NCBI GenBank assembly: GCA_002010305.1
Contig: MTND01000018.1
Span: 69,795 to 133,794 of the forward strand
Reading direction: 5' to 3'
Origin: Archaeoglobi archaeon JdFR-42
GTDB taxonomy: Archaea; Halobacteriota; Archaeoglobi; Archaeoglobales; JdFR-42
Length of the DNA: 64,000 nucleotides
Under the pieces are notes generated by a model. That model saw only the letters and a program-made list of their open reading frames with translations, did no database searches and was not told the DNA's origin. Both the position numbers and the translations under genes were made by a program. Every line of letters starts with the position of its first letter. The stretch's first letter is position 1. Positions 228 to 51,132 of the stretch are shown piece after piece.

Positions 228-1787
228 ATGGCTCTAAAAACCAATGAAATCATACTCCCATCCAAAACTCGATCTTTGTGCCCGGAGTGCAAAAGCATCA
301 TAGAAGCCAACATATACGAAGAAAATGGAAGGGTAATGATCGATAAAGAATGCAAGGTTCATGGATATTTTAAAGACGTTTACTGGGGTGACGTGGGACT
401 TTTCAAGAAGGCTAGCCGTTTTCAGGCAAAAGGTAAGAAGTTATTGAACCCAAACATAGAGAAAGAGAATCCTGTCTGTCCCACTGATTGCGGGTTGTGC
501 AGAACTCATCTCAACCATTCAGCATTAACAAACATAGTGTTGACCAACAGATGCGATTTGTCATGCTGGTACTGCTTTTTTTACGCAAAAAAAGCTGGTT
601 ATATTTACGAGCCAACCATAGAGCAAATTAGACAGATGGTTAGACTCATTAAAAGCGAAAAGCCTGTCCCTGGAAATGCCGTACAGCTAACTGGAGGGGA
701 GCCAACACTCAGAGAAGATCTTATAGACATCATAAAAATGATAAAGGAGGAGGGAATTGACCATATTCAGCTCAATACAAATGGAATTAGGATTTCTCAA
801 GATCTCGAATTTACAAAAAAAGTTAGAGAGGCTGGGGTTAACACTCTATATCTGAGTTTTGATGGCACCACTTCCGAGACCAATAAGAAAAACCACTGGG
901 AGATACCGGGAGTGCTGGAAAACTGCAGAAAAGCCAATCTGGGAATTGTCCTTGTTCCCACGATTCTCAATACCGTTAATGATCATGAAGCGGGTAACAT
1001 TATCCGTTTTGGATTTGAAAACATCGATATAATTCGATCAGTAAATTTCCAGCCGGTCTCTCTGGTTGGGAGAATGACCAAGAAAGAGAGGGAGAAATTC
1101 AGGATCACCATCCCTGATCTGATAAAAAGAATCGAGGACCAGATGGATGGGGAAATAGGAAGGGAGGATTTTTACCCGGTACCGTGTGTAAGCCCCATAA
1201 CCCAGTTTGTAGAGGCGGTGACTGGTAGACCGCAGTATGAACTCTCTATACACTTCGCATGTGGCATGGCCACCTATGTATTCAAAGAAGGAGACAGACT
1301 GATACCCATAACTCGGTTCGTTGATGTTGAAGGACTTTTTGAATTTCTTAGAGAAGCTTCAGAGGAGATTAAAAAGGGACGAAGCAGGTTCATTGTAGGG
1401 GCAAAACTTTTACTGAATCTAAGAAAATTCATAGACAAAGACAAACAACCGGGAGAATTCAACTTCGCGAAAATAATCTACGATGTGCTTATCAAACATG
1501 ACTACCACTCTCTCGGACAGTTCCATCTCAAAAGCTTATTCATCGGAATGATGCATTTCCAGGATCTCTACAACTATGACATTAACAGGGTGATGAGATG
1601 CGATATACACTATGCCACCCCTGACGGAAGAATCATACCTTTCTGTGCTTTTAATGTGATACCCGAATGGTACCGTGATAAAATCCAGACAGAATATGGA
1701 ATCCCAATTGAAGAATGGGAAAAACAGACTGGTAGGAGTTTGAAAGATGACTTTTACATCAGGAAGAAGGTAACTGCCCGTATGTAG
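228..1787 (+). CDS. Radical SAM enzyme with N-terminal Zn-ribbon, MJ0619-like family (as I recall, the family containing archaeal tetraether lipid synthase Tes/GDGT-MAS)
   Basis: CPEC...C..H Zn-ribbon at the N-terminus. CDLSCWYC is a CxxxCxxC radical SAM triad. GGEPTL motif present. 519 aa. GGAGGG at 218-223 lies just upstream of the ATG. Confidence 0.7.
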   Translation: MALKTNEIILPSKTRSLCPECKSIIEANIYEENGRVMIDKECKVHGYFKDVYWGDVGLFKKASRFQAKGKKLLNPNIEKENPVCPTDCGLCRTHLNHSALTNIVLTNRCDLSCWYCFFYAKKAGYIYEPTIEQIRQMVRLIKSEKPVPGNAVQLTGGEPTLREDLIDIIKMIKEEGIDHIQLNTNGIRISQDLEFTKKVREAGVNTLYLSFDGTTSETNKKNHWEIPGVLENCRKANLGIVLVPTILNTVNDHEAGNIIRFGFENIDIIRSVNFQPVSLVGRMTKKEREKFRITIPDLIKRIEDQMDGEIGREDFYPVPCVSPITQFVEAVTGRPQYELSIHFACGMATYVFKEGDRLIPITRFVDVEGLFEFLREASEEIKKGRSRFIVGAKLLLNLRKFIDKDKQPGEFNFAKIIYDVLIKHDYHSLGQFHLKSLFIGMMHFQDLYNYDINRVMRCDIHYATPDGRIIPFCAFNVIPEWYRDKIQTEYGIPIEEWEKQTGRSLKDDFYIRKKVTARM

Positions 1788-6432: not shown

Positions 6433-6854
6433 AATCTATGAGTACCAAGAAATTCACAGATGATGAAAATGGGCAAATCCTGATAATTATGGCTCTGCTA
6501 ATATCAGTCCTACTTGCTGGTCTATCCCTGTTATATACCCAGAATTTGCTGGCAGGGACCGAATCTGCATTAACTCAGCTTAATTTTCCAAAGAACGAGA
6601 TACGAGATTTAAACAGGATTGTGGAGGAGCAACTGGTATACTATGCAATTAATAACCCTGAGAATTTTCTGACATATGTCAGAGAACTGGATAAGCAGAT
6701 AACAATGATGTATGCCCTCCATGGCGCTTATGCAGATATAGATGTTTACGATGTTAAAACAAACATCAACGGAGATATCACCTCTTTTTCGGTGAAAATC
6801 ATTTTCAGTAACGCGGTGGTAGATTATGAACACACCAGACAGATTGTCATCTGA
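6420..6854 (+). CDS. Pilin-like protein with class III signal peptide
   Basis: DDENG/QILIIMALLISVLLAGLSLLY N-terminus. Overlaps the upstream gene by 13 nt and the downstream gene by 29 nt. Confidence 0.55.
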   Translation: MAHMKSMSTKKFTDDENGQILIIMALLISVLLAGLSLLYTQNLLAGTESALTQLNFPKNEIRDLNRIVEEQLVYYAINNPENFLTYVRELDKQITMMYALHGAYADIDVYDVKTNINGDITSFSVKIIFSNAVVDYEHTRQIVI

Positions 6855-9204
6855 TGAGAGGGGTGTCTCAATAATTCTTGAATACATCCTGATAATCGGA
6901 ATACTGGCAGTTTTCATGGGGGTGATAGTACTTCAGTTAAACGATATTTTTATAGAAACTCCCACAAGGGTAGCAATGAAAAACCAGTTTCAGGACATAG
7001 GTAATCAGATTGCGACCAAGCTGACCGATATATCCTTGATCGCACCCGATAACGGGTACATCAGAGCCAAGGTGTACATGCCATACGCCATAGGAGACTA
7101 CGATTATCGGGCTGAATTCACTTACATTGGGGGGGACTACGTCCTGAAAATTGAATCAGATAAGCTCAATAAGATTGAATACGTCCCTCTGAATAACTTG
7201 GCTCTTCAGATTATCCCTATGGGTTATACAATCAGCCTGAAAAAAGATCACGAACTCATATACACCAGTTCAACCCATCTCAAACCCACGGCTGTAGCTT
7301 TGGCTTATCCCACCAAGGTAGAAGTTGGCACCAACGTTACGTTCGACATGACTTATTCCACTGGAGAAGGAGACATTTGGTATCAGTGGGATTTTGGAGA
7401 TGGAAACTCAGCAAATGGACAGTATGACTCTGACAATCCTTCCAACTCTCTGGAAGATCATTCATATAATGTGGCAGGAAACTACACTGCAACACTGACA
7501 GTCTGGGATGCTCTTGGATATTCCGATACAGACTCGATCAATATAACAGTCCTACCATCTACTCCTGATCCCTTCCTTCATGCGGATAAATTTGTAACCC
7601 CTGATACAACTGAGCCGAACAACCCTGTTAGAATAACCCTGTATATCAGAGGTGGAGGGATAGTCTCAACAGCCCGAAATATCAGCGTGATACATGTCAC
7701 AGATGTTTCCGGTAGCATGGATCCAGATTATTATGGAGATAACGGGTATACACTATACACATCCAACAGTGGAACCGCAATTCCATCCAAATGGGAATCT
7801 AACATAACAGTAGACGGCAGTTTTTCAAGTCTTACAGTTATGGCATACTCAAACAATGGCAAAGATGTCGATCTATGGGTTAAATCTCCAGACGGCGATT
7901 TTGCAAGGGCCCAGTATCTTATAACCAACGGAGAGTTGTATTATGTGCAGAATCCTGTCGAGGGGGAATGGACGATCGCTGTGGTAGCGGATTATCCAAC
8001 AGACAGCGATACAGTCAATGTGGATGTAGAGAAGAACGGCTATTTCTGGGGATGGTGGTATATCTCAGGAACCCTTGTATCATCTTCAAGCTTCGTTCTT
8101 AATGGAAATGCCACCACGTTCAATCTCCAAATTCCATCTGTAGAGAATCTGAAAATTGAGGCCACTCCGGTGAACGGTAGCAAGGTACTTCACCTGTGGG
8201 TAGAGAAAGGCGCAACTCGTTATGGGCCTTACTCAGGCGCTTACGAAGAATCCAATGGTGGAGGGAATTATACAGCTTACGTTGTGGCTGATTTCCCCTA
8301 TGGAACTCAGGACTTTTACCTCTACACATCTATAGCCAAAATCGACGCTGCAAAGATCACAGCTAAAACCTTTAACGGATTTTTGAGGGGGAGCGATCAG
8401 GTTGGTGTAGTCTCGTTTGGTGGAACGGGAGGTAGTGGCAGGACGCCTAGAATAACTTTAGACCAGCCTCTGACCAATGATACCAATCAGGCAAATTCAA
8501 GTATAGATGGCCTGTGGGCTTATGGTGGAACCCCACTTGGAGGAGGTATAAAAACTGCCAGGGAAGAACTTGTTGCCAACACAACAGCAGGAAACATTCC
8601 CGTGATGATTATTCTGTCAGATGGAAACCCCACTATTACCTCCAGTGGGCAACCTTCTGAAACTTTGGCCATTCAGGAAGCTCTTGACGAAGCAAATGTC
8701 ACCAAACAGACAACTATCAACAATGAATCCATACTCATATACACCATTGGATTTGGACCAGATGCTAACGCAACATTATTGAAAGAGATAGCAAGTTCAC
8801 CCAATAATTACTATTTTGCTGCTACTTCTGAAGAGTTACAAAGCATATATGAACAGATTGCTAGAGAGTTAAGAGAGAAGGCTGCTCAGAATGTTACTGT
8901 AACAGATGTGCTTCCACCCGATGTAATACTTTCTGAGACACCTTCTGGAGCAAATGTCACCTACAGCAACGGGACGACTATAATTAGATGGGAAATACCA
9001 TCTATCCGGATTAACGAAACATGGACTGTGAGTTTTCTTGTCACTCCAACTTCAGCATCAGTAACAGAAACAAATGTCCCAAATGCGTCCAATGTAACTT
9101 TTCTACCTTTTCCTTTTGTAGGAGTGAACTTCACCACAATATACTTACCCCCTGGAGAGATTAACGTGACAAGCCTAGGAGCCAAAAAGGTTGAGCTACA
9201 ATGA
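6826..9204 (+). CDS. Large pilin-like adhesin candidate: class III signal peptide, PKD domain, and a vWA domain carrying an inserted beta-sandwich pair
   Basis: DERG/VSIILEYILIIGILAVFMGVIVL N-terminus. PKD signature WDFGDGNSANG...HSYNVAGNYTATLTVWD. vWA MIDAS DVSGSM at 7702-7719. The rest of the vWA fold follows later (KIDAAKITAKTF...VGVVSFGG...GGTPLGGGI...ILSDGNPT...IYTIGFG). The C-terminus is dense in N-x-S/T sequons. Confidence 0.7.
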   Translation: MNTPDRLSSDERGVSIILEYILIIGILAVFMGVIVLQLNDIFIETPTRVAMKNQFQDIGNQIATKLTDISLIAPDNGYIRAKVYMPYAIGDYDYRAEFTYIGGDYVLKIESDKLNKIEYVPLNNLALQIIPMGYTISLKKDHELIYTSSTHLKPTAVALAYPTKVEVGTNVTFDMTYSTGEGDIWYQWDFGDGNSANGQYDSDNPSNSLEDHSYNVAGNYTATLTVWDALGYSDTDSINITVLPSTPDPFLHADKFVTPDTTEPNNPVRITLYIRGGGIVSTARNISVIHVTDVSGSMDPDYYGDNGYTLYTSNSGTAIPSKWESNITVDGSFSSLTVMAYSNNGKDVDLWVKSPDGDFARAQYLITNGELYYVQNPVEGEWTIAVVADYPTDSDTVNVDVEKNGYFWGWWYISGTLVSSSSFVLNGNATTFNLQIPSVENLKIEATPVNGSKVLHLWVEKGATRYGPYSGAYEESNGGGNYTAYVVADFPYGTQDFYLYTSIAKIDAAKITAKTFNGFLRGSDQVGVVSFGGTGGSGRTPRITLDQPLTNDTNQANSSIDGLWAYGGTPLGGGIKTAREELVANTTAGNIPVMIILSDGNPTITSSGQPSETLAIQEALDEANVTKQTTINNESILIYTIGFGPDANATLLKEIASSPNNYYFAATSEELQSIYEQIARELREKAAQNVTVTDVLPPDVILSETPSGANVTYSNGTTIIRWEIPSIRINETWTVSFLVTPTSASVTETNVPNASNVTFLPFPFVGVNFTTIYLPPGEINVTSLGAKKVELQ

Positions 9205-43721: not shown

Positions 43722-44240
43722 TTAAGTATTTGTAACAGGGAATATCCTGCAGGATACCATAGATCTCATCATAACATATAATCCGACAATCATTCCGACT
43801 ATCCCTATCACGAATATGATCCCAGAATATTGTTGAACGAGTAAGATGGAAAAAAACAATCCTCCGGTAAGTAATCCCAGAGAAGATAGAAGTATTAGTA
43901 AGCCAAATAAACATGGTGGGCATCCAACGAAACTGAAGATTCCCGCAAATATTGCGCCCATAAATCCTGCTGCTCCATTTTTTCTGGATTTTCGCAACCT
44001 GAAAGATGGTGCTACAAAAACCACATATAAAGCCAAAAGCAGAGAAAAAGGAAGGTAGATGAAGAAACGGGAAAGAGCTATGAGAACTGAAACTTCCGCA
44101 GAATACCCGAACACAAGACTATATAGATATGCATCAAAAAAAGTCAAAAACGAGTAAACGATAATGAAGGAGGTTAAAAACAGAGTTTTGCTGTTGTATA
44201 CTGTAATTTTTATCAGCTCGGTATATTGACCCATTCTCAT
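43722..44240 (-). CDS. Polytopic membrane protein with an intramembrane GCPPC motif
   Basis: 4-5 hydrophobic helices. FSFVGCPPCLFGLLILL places a CxxC pair inside a helix. Last gene of the copper/Fe-S operon. Confidence 0.55.
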   Translation of the reverse strand: MRMGQYTELIKITVYNSKTLFLTSFIIVYSFLTFFDAYLYSLVFGYSAEVSVLIALSRFFIYLPFSLLLALYVVFVAPSFRLRKSRKNGAAGFMGAIFAGIFSFVGCPPCLFGLLILLSSLGLLTGGLFFSILLVQQYSGIIFVIGIVGMIVGLYVMMRSMVSCRIFPVTNT

Positions 44241-44291
44241 CCATCCAAAATCAAATAAATAAAAAATAATAAAAATTTAAGGAAACACGTC

Positions 44292-44747
44292 TCACTCCAC
44301 TACTATTGTACCGATCATCCCTGAATTCTCATGGAACTTGCATACCAGTTTGTATTCGCCATCCTCATTAAATTTAACCAGCAATGAATCTCCTTTTGAC
44401 AGTGTTTCATCTACCATCTCCCCATGTTCACCCTCTATAATCGTCACTGTATGAGTTCCTTCTTCATCCTTAAACTCAACTACATCTCCTTTATCAACTC
44501 TTAGCTCTGATGGAGAGAACTCAAAGTTCTTCAGATTCACAGTCAGAGACGGTGTCCCTTCCTTTACAACCACCACTTCATCATGGCCTTCTTCCACGTT
44601 TACCTGCACTTCTTCAGTTTTTTTGGAGTTGTCCACACATCCAGAAACCAGCAGTGCTGCCACCAACACTACCAAGATTCCTAATTTGAACACCTTTTTC
44701 ATGTTCCTCATATATTTCACCTCCTGATTCACTTTTTGTATTTTCAC
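44292..44747 (-). CDS. Type 1 (blue) copper cupredoxin, lipoprotein-like
   Basis: Ligand pattern H(THTV)...C-x2-H-x4-M (CKFHENSGM), as in plastocyanin and halocyanin. Signal peptide ends in the lipobox-like LVSGC. The true start is probably MKKVFKLG, a few codons in. Confidence 0.75.
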   Translation of the reverse strand: MKIQKVNQEVKYMRNMKKVFKLGILVVLVAALLVSGCVDNSKKTEEVQVNVEEGHDEVVVVKEGTPSLTVNLKNFEFSPSELRVDKGDVVEFKDEEGTHTVTIIEGEHGEMVDETLSKGDSLLVKFNEDGEYKLVCKFHENSGMIGTIVVE

Positions 44748-44764
44748 ACCTCTTTTCTATCTCC

Positions 44765-45607
44765 TCAAACCCCAAAGGTGAGTCTAACAGCATCTCTTAC
44801 TCCTGGTGCAAGACCAATTGTGATCAAAGCGAATTTGATGAAGTTATTCAGCTCTCCTTCAGACCTGAGCTCCTTGTCAAGATAGTACAATATGGGTATG
44901 AAAATCATAAATTTGAGAAGAAACATAACAAGGCCAGATCCTGTGAGATTAATGGCTAATCTCGGCAAAACATGTTTCTCCCAGTAACCAAAGAAATCTA
45001 TGGCTATGAAAGTAGCAGTTGCATCTGTCATCTGAGCAAAAATCACCATTGAATTGATGGTCGTGGCTAAAGGCGAGTAGATGGCTCGAAACCCATAATA
45101 AAAAGTAAGCGTGAGGACTGATGCAATTCCAAAAACAGCCAGAAGAACTGCTCCATTTATAACATTAAGCCCGGATACCAGTATGAAGATTATAGCAAGA
45201 ACACACACTACACCGATACTTGCATACACCCTTTCATATCTATATCCGCGTCGATTCTTTAGAAAGACTGCGATGGATAAAGCTGTGATAGCCACAAAAA
45301 AGATGAGAAAATAGATGAGGGGTGTAATCAGTAAGTATTTGAAAGGAGGAGCAACTAGCTCTCCATCTTCCACTACCCTCAGAAGAGCTCCTGAGAGGAT
45401 GTAAGGGATGTTCGCCACCACAAAGGTTCTGTCTACTGTTACTTCCATCTTCCTCAGGAGTTTGAAAAGAAAGAGGACGAAGAGAACTAACAGCAATGCC
45501 CACGTAAGGGTATTCACTGGATTGTATCCAGTATCGTAGAGAATTGGATCAATGTAATATTTCTGAAAAAAAGAGGGGAGGGGGAGGAGAAACATAAAAA
45601 GATACAT
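44765..45607 (-). CDS. DUF63-like polytopic membrane protein
   Basis: 280 aa with ~7 hydrophobic helices. The N-terminus QKYYIDPILYDTGYNPVNTLTWAL resembles archaeal DUF63. Its start shares 1 nt with the upstream stop (TGATG). Confidence 0.55.
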   Translation of the reverse strand: MYLFMFLLPLPSFFQKYYIDPILYDTGYNPVNTLTWALLLVLFVLFLFKLLRKMEVTVDRTFVVANIPYILSGALLRVVEDGELVAPPFKYLLITPLIYFLIFFVAITALSIAVFLKNRRGYRYERVYASIGVVCVLAIIFILVSGLNVINGAVLLAVFGIASVLTLTFYYGFRAIYSPLATTINSMVIFAQMTDATATFIAIDFFGYWEKHVLPRLAINLTGSGLVMFLLKFMIFIPILYYLDKELRSEGELNNFIKFALITIGLAPGVRDAVRLTFGV

Positions 45608-46257
45608 CAGGTCACCTCAAGGAAAGCTGCGTCTCCTATCACGAGGAGGCTTTCATCTTTTCCAAGGAGGGGTAAAACACTGTATCTTCCTAGAGGGGTG
45701 TTTTCATCAATCAAAAAGGTGAAGCTTACCATGCCTTCTTCATCTGTGGTTCCTACTTTCTCTGTATAGATTCCACCTTGTGGGGAATAAACGACTATTT
45801 TTGCATACAAACCACCGAAATCTACTTCCTCTTCGTGATCTTCAGCATCCGAATGATCTTCACTATCCTTATGATCCTCCTCATCTAAATGCTCATCCAC
45901 ATTCTGACCTGTGATATGTCCTCTTTCATCTGCTTGGTCTTTATGATCTGCATCTTCATCTACACTCTTTACTTCATCATGCCCTTCATTTGAACTCTCT
46001 TCTTCATCAGCTCTATGATCGTGACCACCATCTCCATGACCTGCGAGAACTTTCAAAGTCACCGTAATTTCTGCTGGTTTTTTAACCACTTTATCCTCCA
46101 GTTCTACCACCGGTGTCACATGAGGTGGCTCTTCCTCAGCCTGCTCTCCTACGACAGATGCATAACCGAAAACCACCACCGCTCCTATGAGTATTAATGA
46201 GAAGAATATTACAGGAGGAAAAGATAGAAAGTCCCTAATTTTACCCATCTCACTCAC
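45607..46257 (-). CDS. Membrane-anchored His/Asp/Glu-rich protein with a beta-sandwich-like C-terminus (putative metal-binding)
   Basis: N-terminal TM helix. A 74-residue stretch (GHGDGGHDH...EDHEEEVD) holds 10 His by my count and is dominated by D/E. The C-terminus YAKIVVYSPQGGIYTEKVGTTDEEGMVSFTF is Ig/CarboxypepD_reg-like. Confidence 0.55.
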   Translation of the reverse strand: MSEMGKIRDFLSFPPVIFFSLILIGAVVVFGYASVVGEQAEEEPPHVTPVVELEDKVVKKPAEITVTLKVLAGHGDGGHDHRADEEESSNEGHDEVKSVDEDADHKDQADERGHITGQNVDEHLDEEDHKDSEDHSDAEDHEEEVDFGGLYAKIVVYSPQGGIYTEKVGTTDEEGMVSFTFLIDENTPLGRYSVLPLLGKDESLLVIGDAAFLEVT

Positions 46258-46660
46258 CTTCCACTATAATTATGCCCCTCATATAATGGTGTATGGGGCT
46301 GCATACCACGGTACATTCAAACATATACACTCCTTCTTCCTTAGGAGTGAACTCGACCACCTTTTTTTCCCCTGGTTCTATCGGCCCAAGATCTATCCCA
46401 AGAGCTTCGCTTTTAAATCCATGAACCACATCCATCCCCTCTACCACCAGTTTCACTGTTTCTCCTTTCTTCACCCGTATCACTCCTGGATCAAAACCAC
46501 CCGATTCCTGTATGTAAGCCCTTATCAGGATTGTATTGGGCTCTCTTTTTTCTGGCATGACATAGTTATCCAGCAACGGAAGGGATACTGTTCCAATTAC
46601 TGCAATAGTAAGCACCAATGCTACAATTTCCCAGAAGATTCCTCTATTCATATATATCAC
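46250..46660 (-). CDS. Membrane-anchored cupredoxin with a CuA-type ligand motif
   Basis: TM anchor followed by VVHGF...x35...C-TVV-C-SPI-H-HY-M. This is H...C-x3-C-x3-H-x2-M, the spacing of the binuclear CuA site in CoxII/NosZ. Confidence 0.65.
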   Translation of the reverse strand: MIYMNRGIFWEIVALVLTIAVIGTVSLPLLDNYVMPEKREPNTILIRAYIQESGGFDPGVIRVKKGETVKLVVEGMDVVHGFKSEALGIDLGPIEPGEKKVVEFTPKEEGVYMFECTVVCSPIHHYMRGIIIVEGE

Positions 46661-48663
46661 CCCGCTACCACCCAGACAAATGCAATGGCTACCAAGATAT
46701 GTAGCAATGCCATGACCGATGTAGCCCTAAAGGCTTTGTCATGTCCTCCAAGCATCTTGCGAGCTATGTTATAAGTAGAATTAATGGCAAGAGCCATCCC
46801 TATTATGGACAGAGATGCTAGCACATATGGCAAAGACTGAGGAATAAACGGATCCCATTTGAACTTAAATCCAAGAAGATTCCAGCCCCATCCGAAAGGA
46901 TCTGAAAAGGCTGTTATCGGATATGCCCAGAATACCAAGAGGATTGCAACGGCGAATGCCGCCCATATGAATACTATGTAAGGGATCAGTGCATAGCTGA
47001 AAGCCAGAAATATATGTTTCGTTGGTTGATCCGTTTTTGCAACTTTTTTTGAGAACCACGAGAAGGTGTAAAATACGGCTGGATAAGCTACAAGTGCTAC
47101 TCCAGCCACCATAATAGCCCACTTAAACCAATTTACTACCCCTTCTACTCCAGGAGTGAGCAACCCAATGCTGGCAAGATTAGCTCCGAAATTAACGCCC
47201 ATATTCCCCCAGTCTCTGATCCAGGAATAAGGACCAAAGAATACCAGAATATAGAAAACTCCCAGAGTAAATCTTATAAAGCCCATCCACGCCTCATCAA
47301 ACTTATTTTTCGCCTTTGCAGCCATGTGTGCTAAATCTTTTCCAATCATCCGTATTTTAACAGTCATGTTATCAAGGGGACAGGATTTCAAACATTCATA
47401 GCACTGCCCACAGTAAGTATTCTCATCGTGGCCTCCTGGATAAAGCTTCCATGGACAACCATATCCTTCTGGACTACCCCGAATGCACTCTTTTGCCTTA
47501 TGTTTATCACAGATACTTTTATCTCTTGCTCGGACACTGTATATGGAAGCATTCGAATCATGTCCTATGTAAGCTCCCGCCGGACATACACTCCTGCAGA
47601 AATTCCGTGGAGGATGCGTTATATACAATATGGTGCCTACAGCAATCAGAACTACAAACAGTAATCCTGATACCACCGGCCGGGTAACCAGCCACGGAAT
47701 TATGAGAGACATGGTGAGAAACAGAAGAGCACCAAGCCACATATTATTCAGACGCTTGGGCCATTTAAGTTTGAGGGCAAACCATTTTCTCACATTATGT
47801 ACTCCACACAGCCTTCTTCTGGCAATCCATTCACCTATTGCAGGAAGGGGGCACACTGTGCACCATGTCCTTCCTGCCAGTAGGATCATAAACTCAACCA
47901 GAGCAAACCATAAAATCCACACCACAGCAATAGAGAAATTCTTGTTCCCAACTGGATTACCAACAAACCCTGCCACGATAACCACTGCAAAAATCAGCAG
48001 GCTAGGCCAGAGTACTGCAAAATGAAATCCTCTCCACTGGAGAATCCGTTTTAAAATCGGACCTATACCTCTCACTCTGAGAAGATCAATTTCTTTTTCA
48101 AGGGAAATCCCAAGCATTTTGTTCTCTGGTCCTCTCCTAACATAAACTAGTGTGAGCATGCCAACGAAGAGAGTTCCAACCAAGTAGGAATAGTATGTAA
48201 AATTGGGGTTTACCTTTATATCACCCACCATAAAAGGATGGAGTGGGCCACAGGTCACAGAACACCTGATTTTAAATTTACCAGGCTTATCGAAAGTTAT
48301 TGGTCCTATCTCAATGATTTTACCCGGTTCGATGACGATCTTCTGATCTACTGGAGATGGAGTATATCCATCAATAAAAAAGCCGTGAGTTACATCTTCA
48401 GAGATTATCCTGAAAATCACCCTATCTCCTTTGTTTACCTCTATTATTTCAGGATCGAATCCAAATTGATATGCTTTAATATATATTACTCTAATATCGT
48501 CAGGATGATTATGGGGGTCATTGAGCCATTCATCCTCAATCGAGCTTTCATCAGCATTTATGACCGGAAGGAAAAATACACTCAAACTCAACATCAATAA
48601 CACAAAGAGGCATATTTTTTTAATTCCACTCATTTGTTTTCTGATTATATTTACTCTGCTCAT
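46657..48663 (-). CDS. Fusion protein: signal peptide + CuA-motif cupredoxin domain + NapH/NosR/CcoG-like polyferredoxin membrane domain
   Basis: Cupredoxin THGF...C-SVT-C-GPL-H-PF-M. Membrane part has RTWCTVCP and RNFCRSVCP (CxxCP pairs typical of NapH/NosR/CcoG), CGQCYECLKSCP ferredoxin motif and CDKHKAKEC...GCPW. More than 10 hydrophobic helices. Start taken at ATG 48663, which forms an ATGA overlap with the upstream stop. Alternative start is MSGIKK at 48633. Confidence 0.7.
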   Translation of the reverse strand: MSRVNIIRKQMSGIKKICLFVLLMLSLSVFFLPVINADESSIEDEWLNDPHNHPDDIRVIYIKAYQFGFDPEIIEVNKGDRVIFRIISEDVTHGFFIDGYTPSPVDQKIVIEPGKIIEIGPITFDKPGKFKIRCSVTCGPLHPFMVGDIKVNPNFTYYSYLVGTLFVGMLTLVYVRRGPENKMLGISLEKEIDLLRVRGIGPILKRILQWRGFHFAVLWPSLLIFAVVIVAGFVGNPVGNKNFSIAVVWILWFALVEFMILLAGRTWCTVCPLPAIGEWIARRRLCGVHNVRKWFALKLKWPKRLNNMWLGALLFLTMSLIIPWLVTRPVVSGLLFVVLIAVGTILYITHPPRNFCRSVCPAGAYIGHDSNASIYSVRARDKSICDKHKAKECIRGSPEGYGCPWKLYPGGHDENTYCGQCYECLKSCPLDNMTVKIRMIGKDLAHMAAKAKNKFDEAWMGFIRFTLGVFYILVFFGPYSWIRDWGNMGVNFGANLASIGLLTPGVEGVVNWFKWAIMVAGVALVAYPAVFYTFSWFSKKVAKTDQPTKHIFLAFSYALIPYIVFIWAAFAVAILLVFWAYPITAFSDPFGWGWNLLGFKFKWDPFIPQSLPYVLASLSIIGMALAINSTYNIARKMLGGHDKAFRATSVMALLHILVAIAFVWVVAG

Positions 48664-49121
48664 TTTTCTTCCTCCATCCGCCTGAATTTGACGCTTTTGA
48701 ATTCCTCCCACAAATACTCTGAAAATTGATACCATATCTCCGCCAGAGTTCCATCACCATTTCTGACATCCTTTCCAGAGGACGATTTTTCGAGCTTTTC
48801 CCAGACAAAAGAGGCCAGTTCTTTTCCAACCTCATGCAATTCATTGGCTTCTGTTACATCTGAAGTAAACCGCCTTCCAGTTCCTTTAAGAACAGAATAG
48901 AGAAACACTGAGCCACTGTAAGCTGTTTCACTCCGTTTATCGAGATCTGATTCCCATGCGGAATACACATATTCAAACACATCGTGAACAGGTCTTGATA
49001 CCTTATCTTTCGAAAGAGTATTTCTTGCACCAAATACGAGCTTGTTCCAATATCTATCCCTAAGCACATCCCGAACTTTTTGAAAGAGTTCCTTCTTTTC
49101 AGCCTCATGTCCGTTTTTCAT
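48660..49121 (-). CDS. Hypothetical soluble protein (153 aa), first gene of the copper/Fe-S operon
   Basis: No TM helix or signal peptide. Its stop overlaps the next gene's start (ATGA). Family not recognised. Confidence 0.5.
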   Translation of the reverse strand: MKNGHEAEKKELFQKVRDVLRDRYWNKLVFGARNTLSKDKVSRPVHDVFEYVYSAWESDLDKRSETAYSGSVFLYSVLKGTGRRFTSDVTEANELHEVGKELASFVWEKLEKSSSGKDVRNGDGTLAEIWYQFSEYLWEEFKSVKFRRMEEEK

Positions 49122-49207: not shown

Positions 49208-49227
49208 CATTCTCATGAAATGAGAAT
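49208..49227. promoter_or_regulatory. Operator-like palindrome ATTCTCAT-GAA-ATGAGAAT (site 1)
   Basis: Read directly. Perfect 8-bp arms at 49209-49216 and 49220-49227. Lies 87-105 nt upstream of the 49121 start, just distal to the A/T-rich TATA-like stretch at ~49164-49185. Confidence 0.55.
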
Positions 49228-49430: not shown

Positions 49431-49449
49431 CTCTCATTTCATGAGAATG
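49431..49449. promoter_or_regulatory. Operator-like palindrome TCTCAT-TTC-ATGAGA (site 2, inverted copy of site 1)
   Basis: Forward 49432-49449 is the exact reverse complement of 49208-49225 (CATTCTCATGAAATGAGA, 18/18). Lies ~40-58 nt upstream of the regulator gene start. Confidence 0.55.
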
Positions 49450-49489: not shown

Positions 49490-49843
49490 TTGTTCATGGA
49501 TGAGACGGAGAAAAGAATTCTTCAGCATCTCTGCAATGTTCATTCGTATAAAATTCTGGTGGCCCTCATGAAACATGAAATGTCTGCCAGTGAATTGAGT
49601 GAACACTGTAATATCCCTCTCCAGACTGTATACAGATTGCTTAAACAGCTTGAGGACGATAAACTCGTCAAAATTATTAGAATGAAACTAGACGATCGTG
49701 GCCACCATTACAGAATATTTAAAGCCAACATCAGCAAAATCCTCGTCATGCTGGATGGAAATGGTCTTGAAGTTAAACTAATTGAAGAGGACAAGGCAGA
49801 TCGTCTTGCCTCTATGTGGAAAAGCCTTAAAGAGGTGAGATAA
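49490..49843 (+). CDS. ArsR/TrmB-like winged helix-turn-helix transcriptional regulator
   Basis: KILVALMKHEMSASELSEHCNIPLQTVYRLLKQLEDDKLVKII is an HTH plus wing pattern. TTG 49490 per the track. ATG at 49496 is more likely the start. Confidence 0.7.
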   Translation: MFMDETEKRILQHLCNVHSYKILVALMKHEMSASELSEHCNIPLQTVYRLLKQLEDDKLVKIIRMKLDDRGHHYRIFKANISKILVMLDGNGLEVKLIEEDKADRLASMWKSLKEVR

Positions 49844-50125
49844 GTGACCCATTCTCCTATGCACATAATACTGATGATATTCAAAATCGTAAGTTTCCTC
49901 ATTGGAGTCTACATAGCCTTATTGAGCTATCGTTCCTACGTTAAAAAATCTGATCCATCTCTTCTATATTTAGGAGCAGGGTTTGCAGTCATTTCATTTG
50001 CTGTTATCATAGAGGGGATTATCTATGAAGTACTCCTTCAAAGCCTAGTCACAGCACATACCATTCAAAGTGTTATGTTTACTGCTGGAATGATCCTCAT
50101 TTATCTCTCTTTACGATCTAGATGA
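49844..50125 (+). CDS. Small three-TM membrane protein co-transcribed with the regulator
   Basis: GTG start immediately after the regulator's TAA. Three hydrophobic helices. 93 aa. Confidence 0.5.
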   Translation: MTHSPMHIILMIFKIVSFLIGVYIALLSYRSYVKKSDPSLLYLGAGFAVISFAVIIEGIIYEVLLQSLVTAHTIQSVMFTAGMILIYLSLRSR

Positions 50126-50127
50126 CA

Positions 50128-51132
50128 TCAAAAGTATCTTTCCAGTTTTTTTGCTACTTCTTCTGGAGTTGAGCTAGCATATCCCTCATCATGGAGCTTC
50201 GTTAGAAAGAAACAGTCATTCCAGTAATACTTATCAAGATTACTCCTCGCAACTATGTCGATTATGGTGGCAAACCCCTGTGGTTCCTTTAACGGTGGAA
50301 TTAGAATGGCAAAGTTAAAAGAATTATAACCAGACTCCTTATACGCTCTCAAAACCCGAGTAATACCTTCTGATAAATTTAAAAATTCTCCTTTACTGAA
50401 ATCTATAAAATTTTTTGGAGATATCCCTGTCACATGGTCGAAGCCTCTAGGAGCGAAGGCTGTAATCCAGGTAAAGATGTCTGTCCTACCAATAAGCCTT
50501 GGTCCATTTTGCTCTTGTTCCACCAGTATCTCCCAGTAACTCCTGCCATACTCCTGATAAAACTTCTTTCCTGCCTCAAAAACTCTTCTATGGTAATCAG
50601 TGGGAATCCCTGAGATCATAACCTGAATATGAGGGTGTACAATGCTGCTACCAGCAGATTTCAGGTAATTCATATTAATACTGGCATAGTTTGCTTTTTC
50701 ATCTACTCTTTTTGCCATGGAAATGTAATCCTGGATTACTTCAAAGGCATCAATGAAATGTTTTGGGGTGAATTCATCTAAAGAGAGATAGTGGGGATTC
50801 GTAATTCTTACAACAAGAGAGTGAGACGAATAGGGAGAAATGTTTGGGAATAGAATAGCCTCTCCTTTTTCAAGCCTTCCTTCTGAAAGGATTCTAGTAT
50901 CCTTCGTTGCTACTTTATAAATATTCTCTGGACAAAAAGGACAAAAACCCTTTTTCTCAACTTCTTCGAGAATATCCGGGTCTTGAGATATGGGGAGTGG
51001 TTTTTTCACTATGCGGGAAGTTTTTTTGGTGAGGGGATCAAACCGGATTTCTATTTCAAGTTCTTCTTCTCTGCCTTCGACTAGATTGAAGAATCTGCTT
51101 CTTTCCCTTTCTATTCTGAATTCGATTGACAT
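50128..51132 (-). CDS. GalT-like HIT-superfamily nucleotidyltransferase (galactose-1-phosphate uridylyltransferase family)
   Basis: CPFCPEN zinc motif and VHPHIQV (H-phi-H-phi-Q active-site motif). Confidence 0.7.
   Translation of the reverse strand: MSIEFRIERERSRFFNLVEGREEELEIEIRFDPLTKKTSRIVKKPLPISQDPDILEEVEKKGFCPFCPENIYKVATKDTRILSEGRLEKGEAILFPNISPYSSHSLVVRITNPHYLSLDEFTPKHFIDAFEVIQDYISMAKRVDEKANYASINMNYLKSAGSSIVHPHIQVMISGIPTDYHRRVFEAGKKFYQEYGRSYWEILVEQEQNGPRLIGRTDIFTWITAFAPRGFDHVTGISPKNFIDFSKGEFLNLSEGITRVLRAYKESGYNSFNFAILIPPLKEPQGFATIIDIVARSNLDKYYWNDCFFLTKLHDEGYASSTPEEVAKKLERYF

What the first reader, a model, noticed from the sequence alone, without database searches (positions are those of the whole stretch)
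43722..49121. Seven-gene, translationally coupled copper/Fe-S membrane operon with no recognisable catalytic subunit
The minus-strand genes, in order, are:
1. A 153-aa soluble protein of unknown function.
2. A CuA-motif cupredoxin fused to a polyferredoxin membrane protein.
3. A small anchored CuA-motif cupredoxin.
4. A His/Asp/Glu-rich anchored protein.
5. A DUF63 membrane protein.
6. A type-1 Cu lipoprotein (C-x2-H-x4-M).
7. A membrane protein with an intramembrane GCPPC motif.

**Coupling.** Start/stop overlaps occur at 48660-48663 (ATGA), 46657-46660, 46250-46257 and 45605-45609 (TGATG). This argues for a single stoichiometric unit.

**Interpretation (inference).** The module combines a membrane Fe-S electron entry point (NapH/NosR/CcoG-like CxxCP pairs plus a ferredoxin motif) with three extracytoplasmic copper sites. 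No Cox1-like, NosZ-like or multicopper-oxidase catalytic protein lies in or next to it. It could be any of:
- an extracytoplasmic electron conduit
- a copper reduction/handling system; as I recall, CcoG, a relative of the membrane domain, is a cupric reductase
- an accessory module for an enzyme encoded elsewhere

I do not recognise this gene order as a described system.
Basis: partly seen in the sequence, partly recalled or inferred. Interest (0 to 1): 0.75.

Follow-up and report, generated by a model that had tools for sequence, protein, structure and literature searches.

The report
Copper and iron-sulfur membrane electron-export operon
This archaeal gene cluster most likely encodes an uncharacterised membrane wire that carries electrons out of the cell through iron-sulfur clusters and three copper proteins. 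Relatives of its core genes sit next to nitrous-oxide and oxyanion reductases, so it may be an unstudied way of powering those enzymes.

Summary
The seven minus-strand genes, their copper and Fe-S motifs and the four start/stop overlaps are real. The cluster is not one fixed seven-part machine.

**Conserved core.** The core is g2 plus g3. g2 is an outside CuA cupredoxin fused to a NapH/NosR-type membrane poly-Fe-S module, with a novel 5-helix C-terminal domain. g3 is an anchored CuA cupredoxin. Archaea add g1, a small cytoplasmic protein. This g2 family was confirmed in 556 species genomes.

**Context elsewhere.** In 11 of 84 related loci g2-g3 lies beside exported terminal reductases, on the same strand in 10. 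Five carry NosZ and six carry type II molybdenum (DMSO-reductase-family) enzymes. CuA-maturation genes (Sco, TlpA-like, CcdA) are frequent neighbours.

**Lineage-specific genes.**
- g4 (His-rich here, Met-rich in relatives) and g6 (lipobox type-1 Cu protein) occur only in the closest relatives.
- g5 is PF01889 (DUF63), now known as the archaeal lipoprotein-lipidation enzyme AliA/AliB, and is unique to this genome's operon.
- g7 is a rare orphan behind an AT-rich gap.

**Regulation.** A conserved palindromic operator and a divergent Cys/His-bearing regulator flank the operon.

**Best reading (confidence 0.55).** This is a copper variant of the NosR/NapH electron-export module. No reductase lies in this window.

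The A. fulgidus orthologs (AF0141-0144) were noted in 2015 but never characterised.

The parts
48660..49121 (-). g1: 153-aa cytoplasmic, all-helical protein with no conserved Cys or His. ATGA-coupled to g2. Archaeal partner of g2.
   Evidence: ORF and overlap. Homologs lie directly upstream of g2 in about 12 archaeal loci (alignment). No Pfam or PDB relative.
46657..48663 (-). g2: 668-aa fusion. It has an N-terminal signal anchor, an outside CuA cupredoxin, a NapH/NosR-type membrane module with cytoplasmic Cys clusters, and a novel 5-helix C-terminal domain.
   Evidence: AlphaFold2 model with pLDDT 89 and pTM 0.89. 470 homologs and 556 confirmed genome loci.
48205..48516 (-). g2 cupredoxin domain (about residues 50-153). 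CuA ligands are H93 (DVTHGF, 48379-48396) and C134/C138/H142/M145 (48229-48264).
   Evidence: The family profile matches the Thermus ba3 oxidase CuA domain at E 4e-24. The model superposes on 2cua/6ptt at 1.9-2.0 A with 33-34% identity. Ligands are kept in 44-52 of 52 homologs.
47344..47928 (-). g2 NapH-like Fe-S region (residues 246-440): WCTVCP (47848-47865), FCRSVCP (47581-47601), C385/C393/C403, and CGQCYECLKSCP (47377-47412).
   Evidence: Fer4_5 at 4.1e-5 (23.9 bits, above the cut-off of 22). NapH NF007013 at 1.1e-7 (31 bits against a cut-off of 234). All these Cys are kept in at least 48 of 52 homologs. The loops are Lys/Arg-rich, so predicted cytoplasmic.
46660..47301 (-). g2 C-terminal 5-helix membrane domain (residues 455-668). 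It has invariant E457, P561, W567, F570 and D588-P589, and the outside loop SDPFGWGWN (46879-46905). There is no metal ligand and no known relative.
   Evidence: No Pfam, NCBIfam or PDB match covers this region.
46250..46660 (-). g3: 136-aa (or 133-aa) N-terminally anchored CuA cupredoxin. It has DVVHGF (46415-46432) and C116-x3-C-x3-H-x2-M (46280-46315).
   Evidence: A cupredoxin gene directly follows g2 in 41 of 88 fetched loci, 37 of them with the full CuA motif. A cupredoxin of this family occurs in 76 of 88.
45607..46257 (-). g4: anchored, strongly acidic outside protein. It has a His/Asp/Glu-rich insert (residues 73-144, 45826-46041) and a conserved small C-terminal beta-sandwich. Putative copper-binding or chaperone accessory (inferred).
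   Evidence: Relatives carry a Met-rich segment (MKEMRQMMVDML) in place of the His-rich insert. A weak MG2 (Ig-like) match occurs in 5 of 7 members. Not related to the YtkA-like protein.
44765..45607 (-). g5: PF01889 (DUF63 = AliA/AliB family) membrane enzyme for lipobox-protein lipidation. TGATG-coupled to g4. Found in this operon only in this genome.
   Evidence: PF01889 at 1.4e-90, full length. The family is named AliA_AliB. Function from PMC12462473. Absent from all other loci.
44292..44711 (-). g6: 139-aa lipobox (LVSGC, 44637-44651) type-1 copper protein. Ligands are H (GTHTV, 44445-44459) and C-x2-H-x4-M (44316-44342). Own Shine-Dalgarno sequence AGGAGGTGA.
   Evidence: The lipobox and copper ligands are conserved in the four aligned orthologs and can be read in a fifth, L090.
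43722..44240 (-). g7: 172-aa, 5-helix membrane protein. GCPPC (43911-43925) lies at the predicted outer end of helices 3/4, with a conserved C-terminal Cys. Rare orphan family whose membership of the operon is uncertain.
   Evidence: Only 3 hits among 1.84 billion representative proteins. The homologs lie near the same cluster but after a Mo-domain or DoxX gene. The AlphaFold2 model is poor. Not CcdA-like.
49210..49226 (.). Operator-like palindrome TTCTCAT-gaa-ATGAGAA, 9 nt upstream of the TATA-like element CTGTTTAAGT of the g1 promoter.
   Evidence: 2 sites found against 0.04 expected. The same palindrome, spacing and TATA-like element occur upstream of g1 in L009, L010, L089 and L090.
49431..49447 (.). 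Second copy of the palindrome, upstream of the divergent regulator gene.
49490..49843 (+). Divergent winged-helix regulator (TrmB/ArsR-like) with conserved C15, H18, C40, H71 and H72. Probable regulator of the operon (inferred).
   Evidence: The divergent pairing with the operon is conserved in L009, L010, L089 and L090.
49844..50125 (+). DUF7521 small membrane protein, co-transcribed with the regulator.

Best explanation
**Core module.** g2 and g3 form a copper version of the NapH/NosR/RdhC class of transmembrane electron-transfer modules. g1 is probably a cytoplasmic subunit or adaptor.

**Proposed electron path.**
1. Electrons enter at the cytoplasmic Cys/[4Fe-4S] region of g2, from the quinol pool or a cytoplasmic donor such as reduced ferredoxin.
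2. They leave through the outside CuA centre that replaces NosR's flavin domain.
3. They pass to the anchored CuA protein g3.
4. In this lineage they then pass to the lipid-anchored type-1 copper protein g6.
5. The chain supplies an extracytoplasmic high-potential acceptor. In other genomes that acceptor is encoded in the same operon, as NosZ or a TAT-exported type II DMSO-reductase-family enzyme with its haem-b subunit. In this genome it is not in the operon and remains unidentified.

**Accessory genes.**
- g4 is a metal-binding accessory, probably a copper chaperone or buffer for loading the five copper atoms.
- g5 (AliA-type) lipidates g6.
- g7 is a peripheral neighbour of unknown role.
- Expression is probably controlled by the divergent Cys/His-bearing regulator through the two palindromes.

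**Shown:** gene structure, motifs and their conservation, the fold of the CuA domain, synteny with reductases and with CuA-maturation genes, and the conserved operator.

**Inferred:** topology, direction of electron flow, the electron donor, protein-protein contacts, and the roles of g1, g4 and g7.
For: **Domains and ligands.**
- Searches give the domain assignments and ligand positions.
- The g2 cupredoxin profile matches solved CuA domains at E 4e-24.
- The confident model (pLDDT 89) superposes on those domains at about 2 A.
- CuA ligands are kept in 44-52 of 52 homologs, and Fe-S Cys in at least 48 of 52.
- g3-position orthologs carry the full CuA motif in 37 of 41 cases.

**Topology.** The positive-inside rule puts the cupredoxin outside and the Cys clusters inside. 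NosR and PceC have the same arrangement (PMC5928378).

**Context in 84 distinct related loci.**
- Six have alpha-beta-(delta)-gamma type II DMSO-reductase genes directly in line with g2-g3: L015, L016, L040, L052, L057 and L084.
- Five have NosZ. L034, L045, L048 and L060 have it on the same strand as g2-g3. L034, L045 and L060 show the order haem-b/EB_dh-like, g2, g3, Sco, cupredoxin, NosZ. L022 is divergent.
- These reductases carry TAT or Sec/lipobox export signals.
- L015 and L016 share the archaeal g1-g2-g3 core, at 53-59% identity to the window's g2.
- Hocking et al. also report adjacency to nosZ in Ferroglobus placidus (PMC4543118).
- A third, type-1-like cupredoxin recurs in 32 bacterial loci, and g6 orthologs occur in six relatives' clusters. 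In L063, g3 is fused to a cytochrome c.

**CuA-maturation genes nearby.** Sco in 6 loci, TlpA-like in 33 and CcdA in 16.

**Precedent.** The modular use of NapH-like modules with an outside redox domain to feed different reductases is documented for flavinylated versions (PMC8238504).

**Expression.** AF0141-0144 are induced in A. fulgidus growing on CO plus sulfate.

**Energetics (textbook values, not measured here).** CuA and type-1 Cu sit at roughly +200 to +300 mV, well above typical [4Fe-4S] clusters and quinols. Flow outward is therefore downhill.
Against: - No terminal reductase lies in the operon or anywhere in the 64-kb window. The rest of the genome could not be searched.
- Only 11 of 84 related loci show an adjacent reductase. 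Many of the loci are short contigs.
- g2 has no conserved haem, His or Cys ligand inside the membrane, so the path across the bilayer is unexplained.
- There is no biochemical evidence for any member of the family.
- g2 scores far below the NapH cut-off (31 bits against 234), so the analogy rests on motif architecture and not on family membership.
- His-rich and Met-rich partners (g4; AF0141) and a Cys/His regulator would also fit a system whose substrate is copper itself.
- NosR may act in enzyme maintenance as well as electron donation, so the same ambiguity applies here.
Confidence: 0.55

Rival explanations
1. Copper-handling system. The chain delivers electrons to copper itself, as an outside cupric reductase or copper detoxification/acquisition device. 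Cu(II) bound on g4 or g6 would be reduced and passed to chaperones. g2 would act like CcoG.
For: - There is no reductase in the operon.
- g4 is His-rich here and Met-rich in relatives.
- A. fulgidus AF0141 is a secreted Met/Gly-rich protein.
- g6 has extra conserved His-containing motifs.
- The regulator has conserved Cys and His, and weak ArsR/SmtB similarity.
- CopB (AF0152) lies 4 kb from the A. fulgidus genes.
- A heavy-metal ATPase and a YtkA-like protein flank the relatives' clusters.
- CcoG is a poly-Fe-S membrane cupric reductase (PMC7558416).
Against: - No CcoG/FixG model matches g2.
- The neighbouring ATPase scores as Zn/Cd-type (548 bits, against 377 for the Cu subfamily, which is below its cut-off) and is convergent.
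- g2-g3 is operonic with NosZ or molybdoenzymes elsewhere.
- CuA and type-1 centres are classical buried electron-transfer sites (established knowledge).
- Sco, TlpA and CcdA neighbours are explained by CuA maturation alone (PMC7558416).
- The window itself has no ATPase, Sco or YtkA-like gene.
Confidence: 0.2
2. Envelope redox-repair or oxidant-defence module. The copper chain feeds a small molybdoenzyme or thiol system that repairs oxidised envelope proteins (MsrPQ-like), with g7 as its membrane partner.
For: - In the closest relatives an about 200-aa SUOX-fold Mo protein lies between g6 and g7. Its best hit is MsrP at 65 bits. An HxlR regulator and a DoxX protein also lie there.
- g7 has CPPC plus a third Cys at the predicted outer face.
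- Some bacterial g2 homologs are fused to AhpC/TSA-Redoxin domains.
Against: - The Mo protein has no signal peptide, so it is probably cytoplasmic, and it is far below the MsrP cut-off of 207 bits.
- It is absent from this window.
- Redoxin and TlpA-like partners are equally explained by CuA-cysteine reduction.
- g7 is not related to CcdA and is restricted to a handful of genomes.
Confidence: 0.1
3. Orphaned remnant. The cluster is what is left of a respiratory operon whose reductase was lost, retained without a current function.
For: - The operon lacks the YtkA-like gene and the Mo-domain gene that its closest relatives carry.
- Its gene content differs from every relative.
- No partner enzyme is visible.
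Against: - All seven ORFs are intact and all metal ligands are preserved.
- Overlap coupling and ribosome-binding sites are intact.
- The operator and promoter architecture is conserved.
- The A. fulgidus orthologs, which also lack a reductase, are transcriptionally induced.
Confidence: 0.08

Closest known systems
NosR (membrane electron-donor and maintenance protein of nitrous-oxide reductase)
   Same: - Outside redox domain, then a membrane module with Cys-x(2-3)-Cys-Pro motifs, then a cytoplasmic 2x[4Fe-4S]-type Cys pattern.
- Genetic linkage to nosZ in some relatives (PMC5928378).
   Different: - The outside domain is a CuA cupredoxin, not a flavinylated FMN-binding domain.
- The first motif is C-x2-C-P.
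- An extra 5-helix C-terminal domain is present.
- No NosR model matches.
- There is no nosZ in this window.
NapH (quinol dehydrogenase subunit of NapGH) and the 'NapH-like' modules of Meheust et al. 2021 (PMC8238504)
   Same: - This is the best sequence match of the g2 membrane/Fe-S region: NF007013 at 1.1e-7, and PF12801 passes its cut-off.
- Modular pairing with different extracytoplasmic oxidoreductases.
   Different: - The score is far below the NapH equivalog cut-off (31 against 234 bits).
- There is no NapG or NapA.
- g2 has about 10-11 helices against NapH's four.
- A copper domain is used, not a NapG or FMN partner.
[quoted passage not shown] 2015, PMC4543118)
   Same: - True orthologs of g2 (43% identity; AF0142+AF0143 are one gene split in strain VC-16) and of g3 (AF0144).
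- Like this window, there is no reductase in the cluster.
   Different: - The A. fulgidus cluster has a Met-rich secreted protein (AF0141) and a UbiE-like methyltransferase.
- It has no g1, g4, g5, g6 or g7.
- It is known only from transcript data.
Cytochrome oxidase subunit II and the NosZ C-terminal CuA domains
   Same: Same fold and same H...C-x3-C-x3-H-x2-M ligand set. The closest solved structure is the Thermus ba3 CuA domain.
   Different: No subunit I or CuZ propeller is attached or adjacent. The CuA domain is fused to an Fe-S membrane module.
CcoG/FixG cupric reductase
   Same: A membrane protein with two [4Fe-4S]-type motifs, linked to copper biology (PMC7558416).
   Different: - No sequence match to CcoG/FixG models.
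- No C-terminal Ig-like domain in g2.
- No cco genes nearby.
Halocyanin / CopI-type anchored type-1 cupredoxins, with AliA/AliB lipidation
   Same: - g6 is a lipobox type-1 Cu protein like Natronomonas halocyanin, the classical archaeal lipoprotein.
- g5 belongs to the family of the enzymes that attach archaeol to such proteins.
   Different: - g6 is below the halocyanin model cut-off (41.9 against 93.8 bits).
- CopI similarity is negligible.
- Lipidation of g6 by g5 is inferred, not shown.

Membership tests
NapH (NF007013 / TIGR02163) | Score above the curated equivalog or subfamily cut-off | tested here: not met
   31.3 bits against 234, and 28.1 against 213.
NapH/NosR/RdhC membrane module | Membrane segments carrying two conserved Cys-x3-Cys-Pro motifs (PMC5928378) | tested here: inconclusive
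   g2 has WC-x2-CP (267-272) and FC-x3-CP (355-361), both near-invariant in 52 homologs. The first spacing differs from CX3CP. PF12801 Fer4_5 scores 23.9 bits, above its cut-off of 22.
NapH/NosR | C-terminal cytoplasmic two-[4Fe-4S] Cys pattern | tested here: met
   C385, C393, C403 and C418-x2-C-x2-C-x3-CP are conserved in at least 48 of 52 homologs. The loop is Lys/Arg-rich, so predicted cytoplasmic. Cluster binding itself was not tested.
NosR | Extracytoplasmic FMN-binding domain with a flavinylated Thr | tested here: not met
   No FMN_bind match. The outside domain is a cupredoxin.
NosR | Genetic linkage to nosZ | tested here: not met
   There is no NosZ propeller in the 64-kb window. Linkage exists in 5 of 84 related loci.
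CcoG/FixG cupric reductase | Match to CcoG/FixG models, a C-terminal Ig-like domain, and ccoNOQP/ccoHIS context | tested here: not met
   No such Pfam or NCBIfam hit at E<=0.1. The g2 C-terminus is five helices. No cco genes are nearby.
CuA cupredoxin (COX2 PF00116 type) | Ligand set H, C-x3-C-x3-H-x2-M in a cupredoxin fold | tested here: met
   Both g2 and g3 carry it. g3 scores 30.6 bits on PF00116, above the cut-off of 22. g2 alone scores 16.7 bits, below the cut-off, but its family profile matches ba3 CuA at 4e-24 and the model fits at 2.0 A.
Haem-copper oxidase or N2O reductase (as a complete enzyme) | Catalytic subunit I, or a CuZ beta-propeller | tested here: not met
   The Pfam table of the +-10 kb around g2 lists neither a haem-copper oxidase subunit I nor a NosZ propeller. 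A whole-window tblastn with NosZ and other queries found only the CuA domains. No subunit I query was used.
Type-1 copper protein (PF00127 plastocyanin/azurin family), for g6 | Pfam score above cut-off and H, C, H, M ligands | tested here: met
   44.2 bits against 21.2. Ligands are conserved in the aligned orthologs. The halocyanin subfamily model TIGR03102 is not met (41.9 against 93.8).
AliA/AliB (PF01889, formerly DUF63), for g5 | Full-length match to PF01889 | tested here: met
   304.7 bits, E 1.4e-90, profile positions 3-269 of 269. The family is named AliA_AliB.
AliA/AliB, for g5 | Catalyses archaeol attachment to lipobox Cys. AliA-type has conserved Arg pair and AliB-type has His (PMC12462473) | not tested
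   No reference AliA sequence was available for a residue-level check. Activity cannot be tested with these tools.
CcdA/DsbD_TM, for g7 | Profile similarity to PF02683-type proteins | tested here: not met
   hhalign probability 0.2% against the CcdA proteins that neighbour bacterial g2 genes. No Pfam, NCBIfam or PDB hit.

The most novel reading that the evidence does not exclude
g2-g3 (with g1) would define an unrecognised, haem-free and flavin-free class of quinol- or ferredoxin-dependent 'CuA reductases'. This would be a copper-only electron-export branch used by diverse strict anaerobes, archaeal and bacterial, to power periplasmic NosZ and type II molybdoenzymes. In lineages such as this one and Archaeoglobus, which show no linked reductase, the three-copper chain would itself be the terminal device. 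It would reduce an external high-potential acceptor, such as Cu(II) or another metal ion, at g6 or g4.
Probability: 0.3. Interest if true: 0.8.

Novelty: new variant of a known kind. Interest (0 to 1): 0.6.

Why it matters
**A long-standing oddity.** CuA 'cytochrome oxidase subunit II' genes have been annotated in strict anaerobes such as Archaeoglobus fulgidus since its genome was published, with no oxidase subunit I to go with them. This analysis offers a testable explanation: they are the output end of a NapH/NosR-type membrane module.

**Possible reach.** If that is correct, the family would be a previously uncharted route for supplying electrons to nitrous-oxide reductase and to periplasmic molybdenum oxyanion reductases. 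It was found in at least 556 species-level genomes across Archaea and Bacteria. That bears on N2O-sink physiology and on how NapH-like modules move electrons across membranes.

**A natural test case for archaeal lipoproteins.** The operon places the newly identified lipoprotein-lipidation enzyme family directly upstream of a lipobox cupredoxin.

Tried and rejected
**Structure work.**
- The AlphaFold2 model of g7 was too poor to use (pLDDT 59).

**g7.**
- A profile search of 1.84 billion proteins found 3 hits.
- Its distant relative P0143 sits on a 981-bp contig with no context.
- A PDB search found nothing.
- A link to CcdA was rejected.

**g1.** No Pfam or PDB relative. A. fulgidus AF0141 is not a g1 homolog.

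**g4.** A proposed relationship to the YtkA-like protein of relatives was rejected (hhalign probability 0.2%). PDB hits were spurious.

**Copper-supply argument from the neighbouring P1B ATPase.** Weakened, because it scores as Zn/Cd-type and is convergent.

**Small SUOX-fold Mo protein of relatives as the missing catalytic subunit.** Rejected for this window, because it is absent here and lacks a signal peptide.

**Organism identity.** It could not be obtained from cluster names or the literature.

**Literature searches.** Searches for a prior description of a cupredoxin-polyferredoxin fusion found only the A. fulgidus transcriptome paper.

**Other.** Rfam found only three tRNAs.

Full report

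The seven minus-strand ORFs are present as described. An identical contig in NCBI (GCA_003935005.1, RSFX01000001.1) and in JGI metagenome 3300037583 carries the same seven gene calls. Reading the junctions confirms four overlaps:
- ATGA between g1 and g2
- GTGA between g2 and g3
- an 8-nt overlap between g3 and g4
- TGATG between g4 and g5

Two details differ from the title 'seven-gene, translationally coupled'.
- g6 most likely starts at the ATG at 44711 (139 aa). It has its own AGGAGGTGA site, 53 nt after g5.
- g7 follows a 51-nt AT- and T-rich spacer that could hold an archaeal terminator and a TATA box.

All quoted motifs are present. Profile searches support the domain calls:
- g3: Cupredoxin_1 at 7.9e-9 and COX2 at 3.5e-7
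- g6: Copper-bind at 2.7e-11
- g5: PF01889 at 1.4e-90
- g2: Fer4_5 at 4.1e-5, plus weak cupredoxin, COX2, NosZ-C-terminal and NapH matches

The Pfam table of the surrounding 20 kb shows no oxidase subunit I, NosZ propeller or multicopper oxidase. A tblastn of the whole window with NosZ, type II molybdoenzyme subunits, Sco and a multihaem cytochrome found none of these either.

**2. Anatomy of g2.**

Hydropathy and the positive-inside rule give the following layout:
- a signal anchor
- an outside cupredoxin (residues about 50-153)
- about ten further helices, with the Cys-rich loops (264-307 and 349-457, 27 Lys+Arg between them) on the cytoplasmic side
- a C-terminal 5-helix domain (455-668)

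A 52-sequence alignment gave a confident AlphaFold2 model (pLDDT 89, pTM 0.89).
- The family profile matches the solved CuA domain of Thermus ba3 oxidase at E 4e-24.
- The model superposes on that domain at 1.9-2.0 A with 33-34% identity.
- No solved structure matches the membrane part.

Across 52 homologs:
- H93 and C138 are invariant.
- C134, H142 and M145 are kept in 44-45.
- Every Fe-S-type Cys is kept in at least 48.

A subgroup of 7-8 sequences replaces C134, H142 and M145 with Asp, Asn and Glu/Asp. The C-terminal domain has invariant acidic, aromatic and Pro residues (E457, W567, F570, D588-P589) but no metal ligands and no known relative.

**3. The other six genes.**

- **g1** is a helical cytoplasmic protein with no conserved Cys or His and no relatives in Pfam or PDB.
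- **g3** is an anchored CuA cupredoxin.
- **g4** has a conserved anchor (FPPxxFF) and a small C-terminal beta-sandwich. A weak MG2 match occurs in 5 of 7 members. Between them lies a variable metal-binding-type segment, His/Asp/Glu-rich here and in L011 but Met-rich (MKEMRQMMVDML) in the other relatives.
- **g5** is a full-length PF01889 protein. That family, formerly DUF63, is now AliA/AliB, the enzymes that attach archaeol to the lipobox Cys of archaeal lipoproteins. The classical example of such a lipoprotein is a halocyanin (PMC12462473).
- **g6** is a lipobox type-1 copper protein. Its lipobox and ligands are conserved in the aligned orthologs.
- **g7** has five predicted helices, with GCPPC at the outer end of helices 3/4 and a conserved C-terminal Cys. 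Only three hits to it were found among 1.84 billion representative proteins. One distant member carries CPSC instead.

**4. Distribution and neighbourhoods.**

g2 has 470 detectable homologs in the protein collection. In one-genome-per-species contigs, 556 loci were confirmed. They include:
- Archaea: Archaeoglobi, Hadarchaeota, Thermoplasmatota, Methanomassiliicoccales, Nitrososphaeria-type and Asgard MAGs
- Bacteria: Desulfobacterales, Anaerolineae, Fidelibacterota, Spirochaetes, Omnitrophica and others

I clustered ORFs around g2 in 88 fetched loci, 84 of them distinct.
- A cupredoxin of the g3 family occurs in 76 of 88. It directly follows g2 in 41, and 37 of those have the complete CuA motif.
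- g1 homologs lie directly upstream of g2 in about 12 archaeal loci.
- g4 and g6 occur only in the closest relatives: L007, L009, L010, L089 and L090, with g4 also in L011.
- g5 occurs only in this genome's version of the operon.
- g7 homologs always lie near this cluster, but after a small signal-less SUOX-fold molybdenum protein (L090) or a DoxX protein (L089), not after g6.
- The window lacks that molybdenum protein, the YtkA-like protein and the ATPase that its relatives carry.

**5. The decisive context.**

Six loci have type II DMSO-reductase-family genes directly in line with g2-g3: L015, L016, L040, L052, L057 and L084. The gene set is a molybdopterin alpha subunit, an Fe-S beta subunit, a NarJ-like delta subunit and an EB_dh haem-b gamma subunit.

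Five loci have NosZ.
- L034, L045, L048 and L060 have it on the same strand as g2-g3.
- L034, L045 and L060 show the order haem-b/EB_dh-like, g2, g3, Sco, cupredoxin, NosZ. A TlpA-like gene follows NosZ in L045 and L060.
- In L022 the clade I NosZ is divergent.

The alpha subunits and the L022 NosZ carry twin-arginine signals. The other NosZ proteins have Sec/lipobox signals, so these enzymes work outside the membrane.

L015 and L016 share the archaeal g1-g2-g3 core, at 53-59% identity to the window's g2.

Other frequent neighbours:
- Sco: 6 loci
- TlpA-like thioredoxins: 33 loci
- CcdA: 16 loci
- PCYCGC proteins: 14 loci
- a type-1-like cupredoxin: 32 loci
- a multihaem cytochrome: 20 loci

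TlpA, CcdA and Sco are the known CuA-maturation route in bacteria (PMC7558416). In L063, g3 is fused to a cytochrome c.

Split forms, with the cupredoxin as a separate gene before the Fe-S membrane protein, occur in L012, L027, L040, L057, L080 and L086.

**6. Literature.**

The A. fulgidus orthologs are AF0142+AF0143 and AF0144. AF0142 and AF0143 are one gene, split in strain VC-16 and intact at 623 aa in DSM 8774.

Hocking et al. 2015 found AF0141-AF0144 among the few transcripts induced during growth on CO with sulfate. [quoted passage not shown]

AF0141 is a secreted Met/Gly/Tyr-rich protein and is not a g1 homolog.

Meheust et al. 2021 showed that NapH-like Fe-S membrane proteins with an outside FMN-binding domain are used modularly with different extracytoplasmic oxidoreductases (PMC8238504). 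The topology of that class was verified for PceC and NosR (PMC5928378).

I found no paper describing the cupredoxin-fused form.

**7. Regulation.**

The 368-bp region between g1 and the divergent regulator holds two copies of the palindrome TTCTCAT-N3-ATGAGAA, at 49210-49226 and 49431-49447. Chance expectation is 0.04 sites.

The same palindrome occurs in L009, L010, L089 and L090, both in front of the regulator and in front of g1. Before g1 it keeps identical 9-nt spacing to a CTGTTTAA(A/G)T TATA-like element.

The 117-aa winged-helix regulator has conserved C15, H18, C40, H71 and H72. It resembles TrmB and, weakly, ArsR/SmtB regulators. It is co-transcribed with a DUF7521 membrane protein. 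The signal it senses is unknown.

**8. Mechanism.**

Best-supported reading (confidence 0.55): g2-g3, with g1, is a copper variant of the NosR/NapH electron-export module.
- Electrons enter at the cytoplasmic Fe-S region, from quinol or a cytoplasmic donor.
- They leave through the CuA centre of g2, pass to the CuA centre of g3, and here pass on to the lipid-anchored type-1 copper protein g6.
- They finally serve an outside high-potential acceptor. Elsewhere that acceptor is NosZ or a type II molybdoenzyme encoded in the same operon. Here it is unidentified.
- Outward flow is downhill, because CuA and type-1 copper potentials lie far above those of typical [4Fe-4S] clusters and quinols. This rests on textbook values and was not measured here.
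- g4 is most simply a copper-binding accessory, and g5 lipidates g6. Both roles are inferred.

Unexplained points:
- how electrons cross a membrane domain with no conserved cofactor ligand
- the role of the C-terminal domain, which could be a quinol site or a docking surface
- the roles of g1 and g7

**9. Rivals.**

*Copper-handling system, with cupric reduction as the end-point (0.2).* It fits the His- and Met-rich partners, the Cys/His regulator and the lack of a reductase. Against it:
- No CcoG/FixG model matches g2.
- The neighbouring ATPase scores as Zn/Cd-type and is convergent.
- g2-g3 is operonic with reductases elsewhere.

*Envelope-repair role through the MsrP-like molybdenum protein and g7 (0.1).* It is weakened because that protein has no signal peptide and is absent here.

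*Decayed remnant (0.08).* It is contradicted by intact ORFs, ligands, ribosome-binding sites and the conserved operator, and by induction of the A. fulgidus genes.

**10. Verdict.**

The system works like NosR/NapH, but it fails the membership tests for NapH (score), NosR (no flavin domain) and CcoG. It is best classed as a new variant of a known kind.

It is widespread, uncharacterised, and linked by synteny to N2O and oxyanion reductases. I score interest at 0.6.

Noticed in passing
window 49210-49226 and 49431-49447: There are two copies of the palindrome TTCTCAT-N3-ATGAGAA in the divergent promoter region (0.04 expected by chance). They are conserved in four related genomes, with fixed spacing to a TATA-like CTGTTTAA(A/G)T before g1. 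This is probably the operator of the adjacent regulator.
   Followed up: yes
window 49490-50125 (+): A winged-helix regulator with conserved C15/H18/C40/H71/H72 is co-transcribed with a DUF7521 membrane protein. The pair is conserved divergently from the operon in L009, L010, L089 and L090. The signal it senses is unknown.
   Followed up: partly
window 44765-45607 (g5) and 44637-44651 (g6 lipobox): A gene for the archaeal lipoprotein-lipidation enzyme family (PF01889, AliA/AliB) is overlap-coupled into the operon, immediately upstream of a lipobox cupredoxin. It occurs in this genome only. Relatives have the lipobox protein without an adjacent AliA gene.
   Followed up: partly
L003 8001-9872 (A. 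fulgidus DSM 8774), compared with strain VC-16 proteins P0129 and P0130: AF0142 ('cytochrome c oxidase subunit II, putative') and AF0143 ('4Fe-4S binding protein') of the type strain are two pieces of one gene. It is intact (623 aa) in strain DSM 8774 and in MAGs.
   Followed up: partly
alignment A4, g2 residues 134/142/145: Seven or eight of 52 g2 homologs replace the CuA ligands C134, H142 and M145 with Asp, Asn and Glu/Asp, while keeping H93 and C138. This suggests a different, perhaps mononuclear, copper site.
   Followed up: no
L012 566-7658: A Methanomassiliicoccales MAG carries two tandem g1-g2-g3 sets. One has the cupredoxin split from the Fe-S membrane protein. Split forms also occur in L027, L040, L057, L080 and L086.
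   Followed up: partly
L063 2557-3507: In a Promethearchaeota MAG the g3-position CuA cupredoxin is fused to a c-type cytochrome domain, like subunit II of caa3 oxidases.
   Followed up: no
L090 6315-7501; L089 5351-7519: In the closest relatives, g7 follows a signal-less SUOX-fold molybdenum protein of about 200 aa (best hit MsrP, 65 bits). An HxlR regulator and a DoxX protein are nearby. This possible redox-stress island is missing from the window.
   Followed up: partly
L003 7684-7983 (A. fulgidus AF0141): A 99-aa secreted protein made largely of Met/Gly/Tyr repeats (MGYGPMMGYTPMMGYGGGMMGG) lies directly upstream of the g2 ortholog. It belongs to the AF0141-AF0144 set reported as induced on CO plus sulfate.
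   Followed up: no
window 50128-51132 (-): A 334-aa ORF with CPFCP and HPHIQ motifs (HIT/GalT-like signature) has no Pfam or NCBIfam match.
   Followed up: no
window 228-1787 (+) and 6826-9204 (+): One ORF is a radical-SAM protein with an HMPTM zinc ribbon (methanopterin-methylase-like), suggesting an H4MPT-using euryarchaeon. The other is a large PKD/VWA/DUF7266 surface protein.
   Followed up: no
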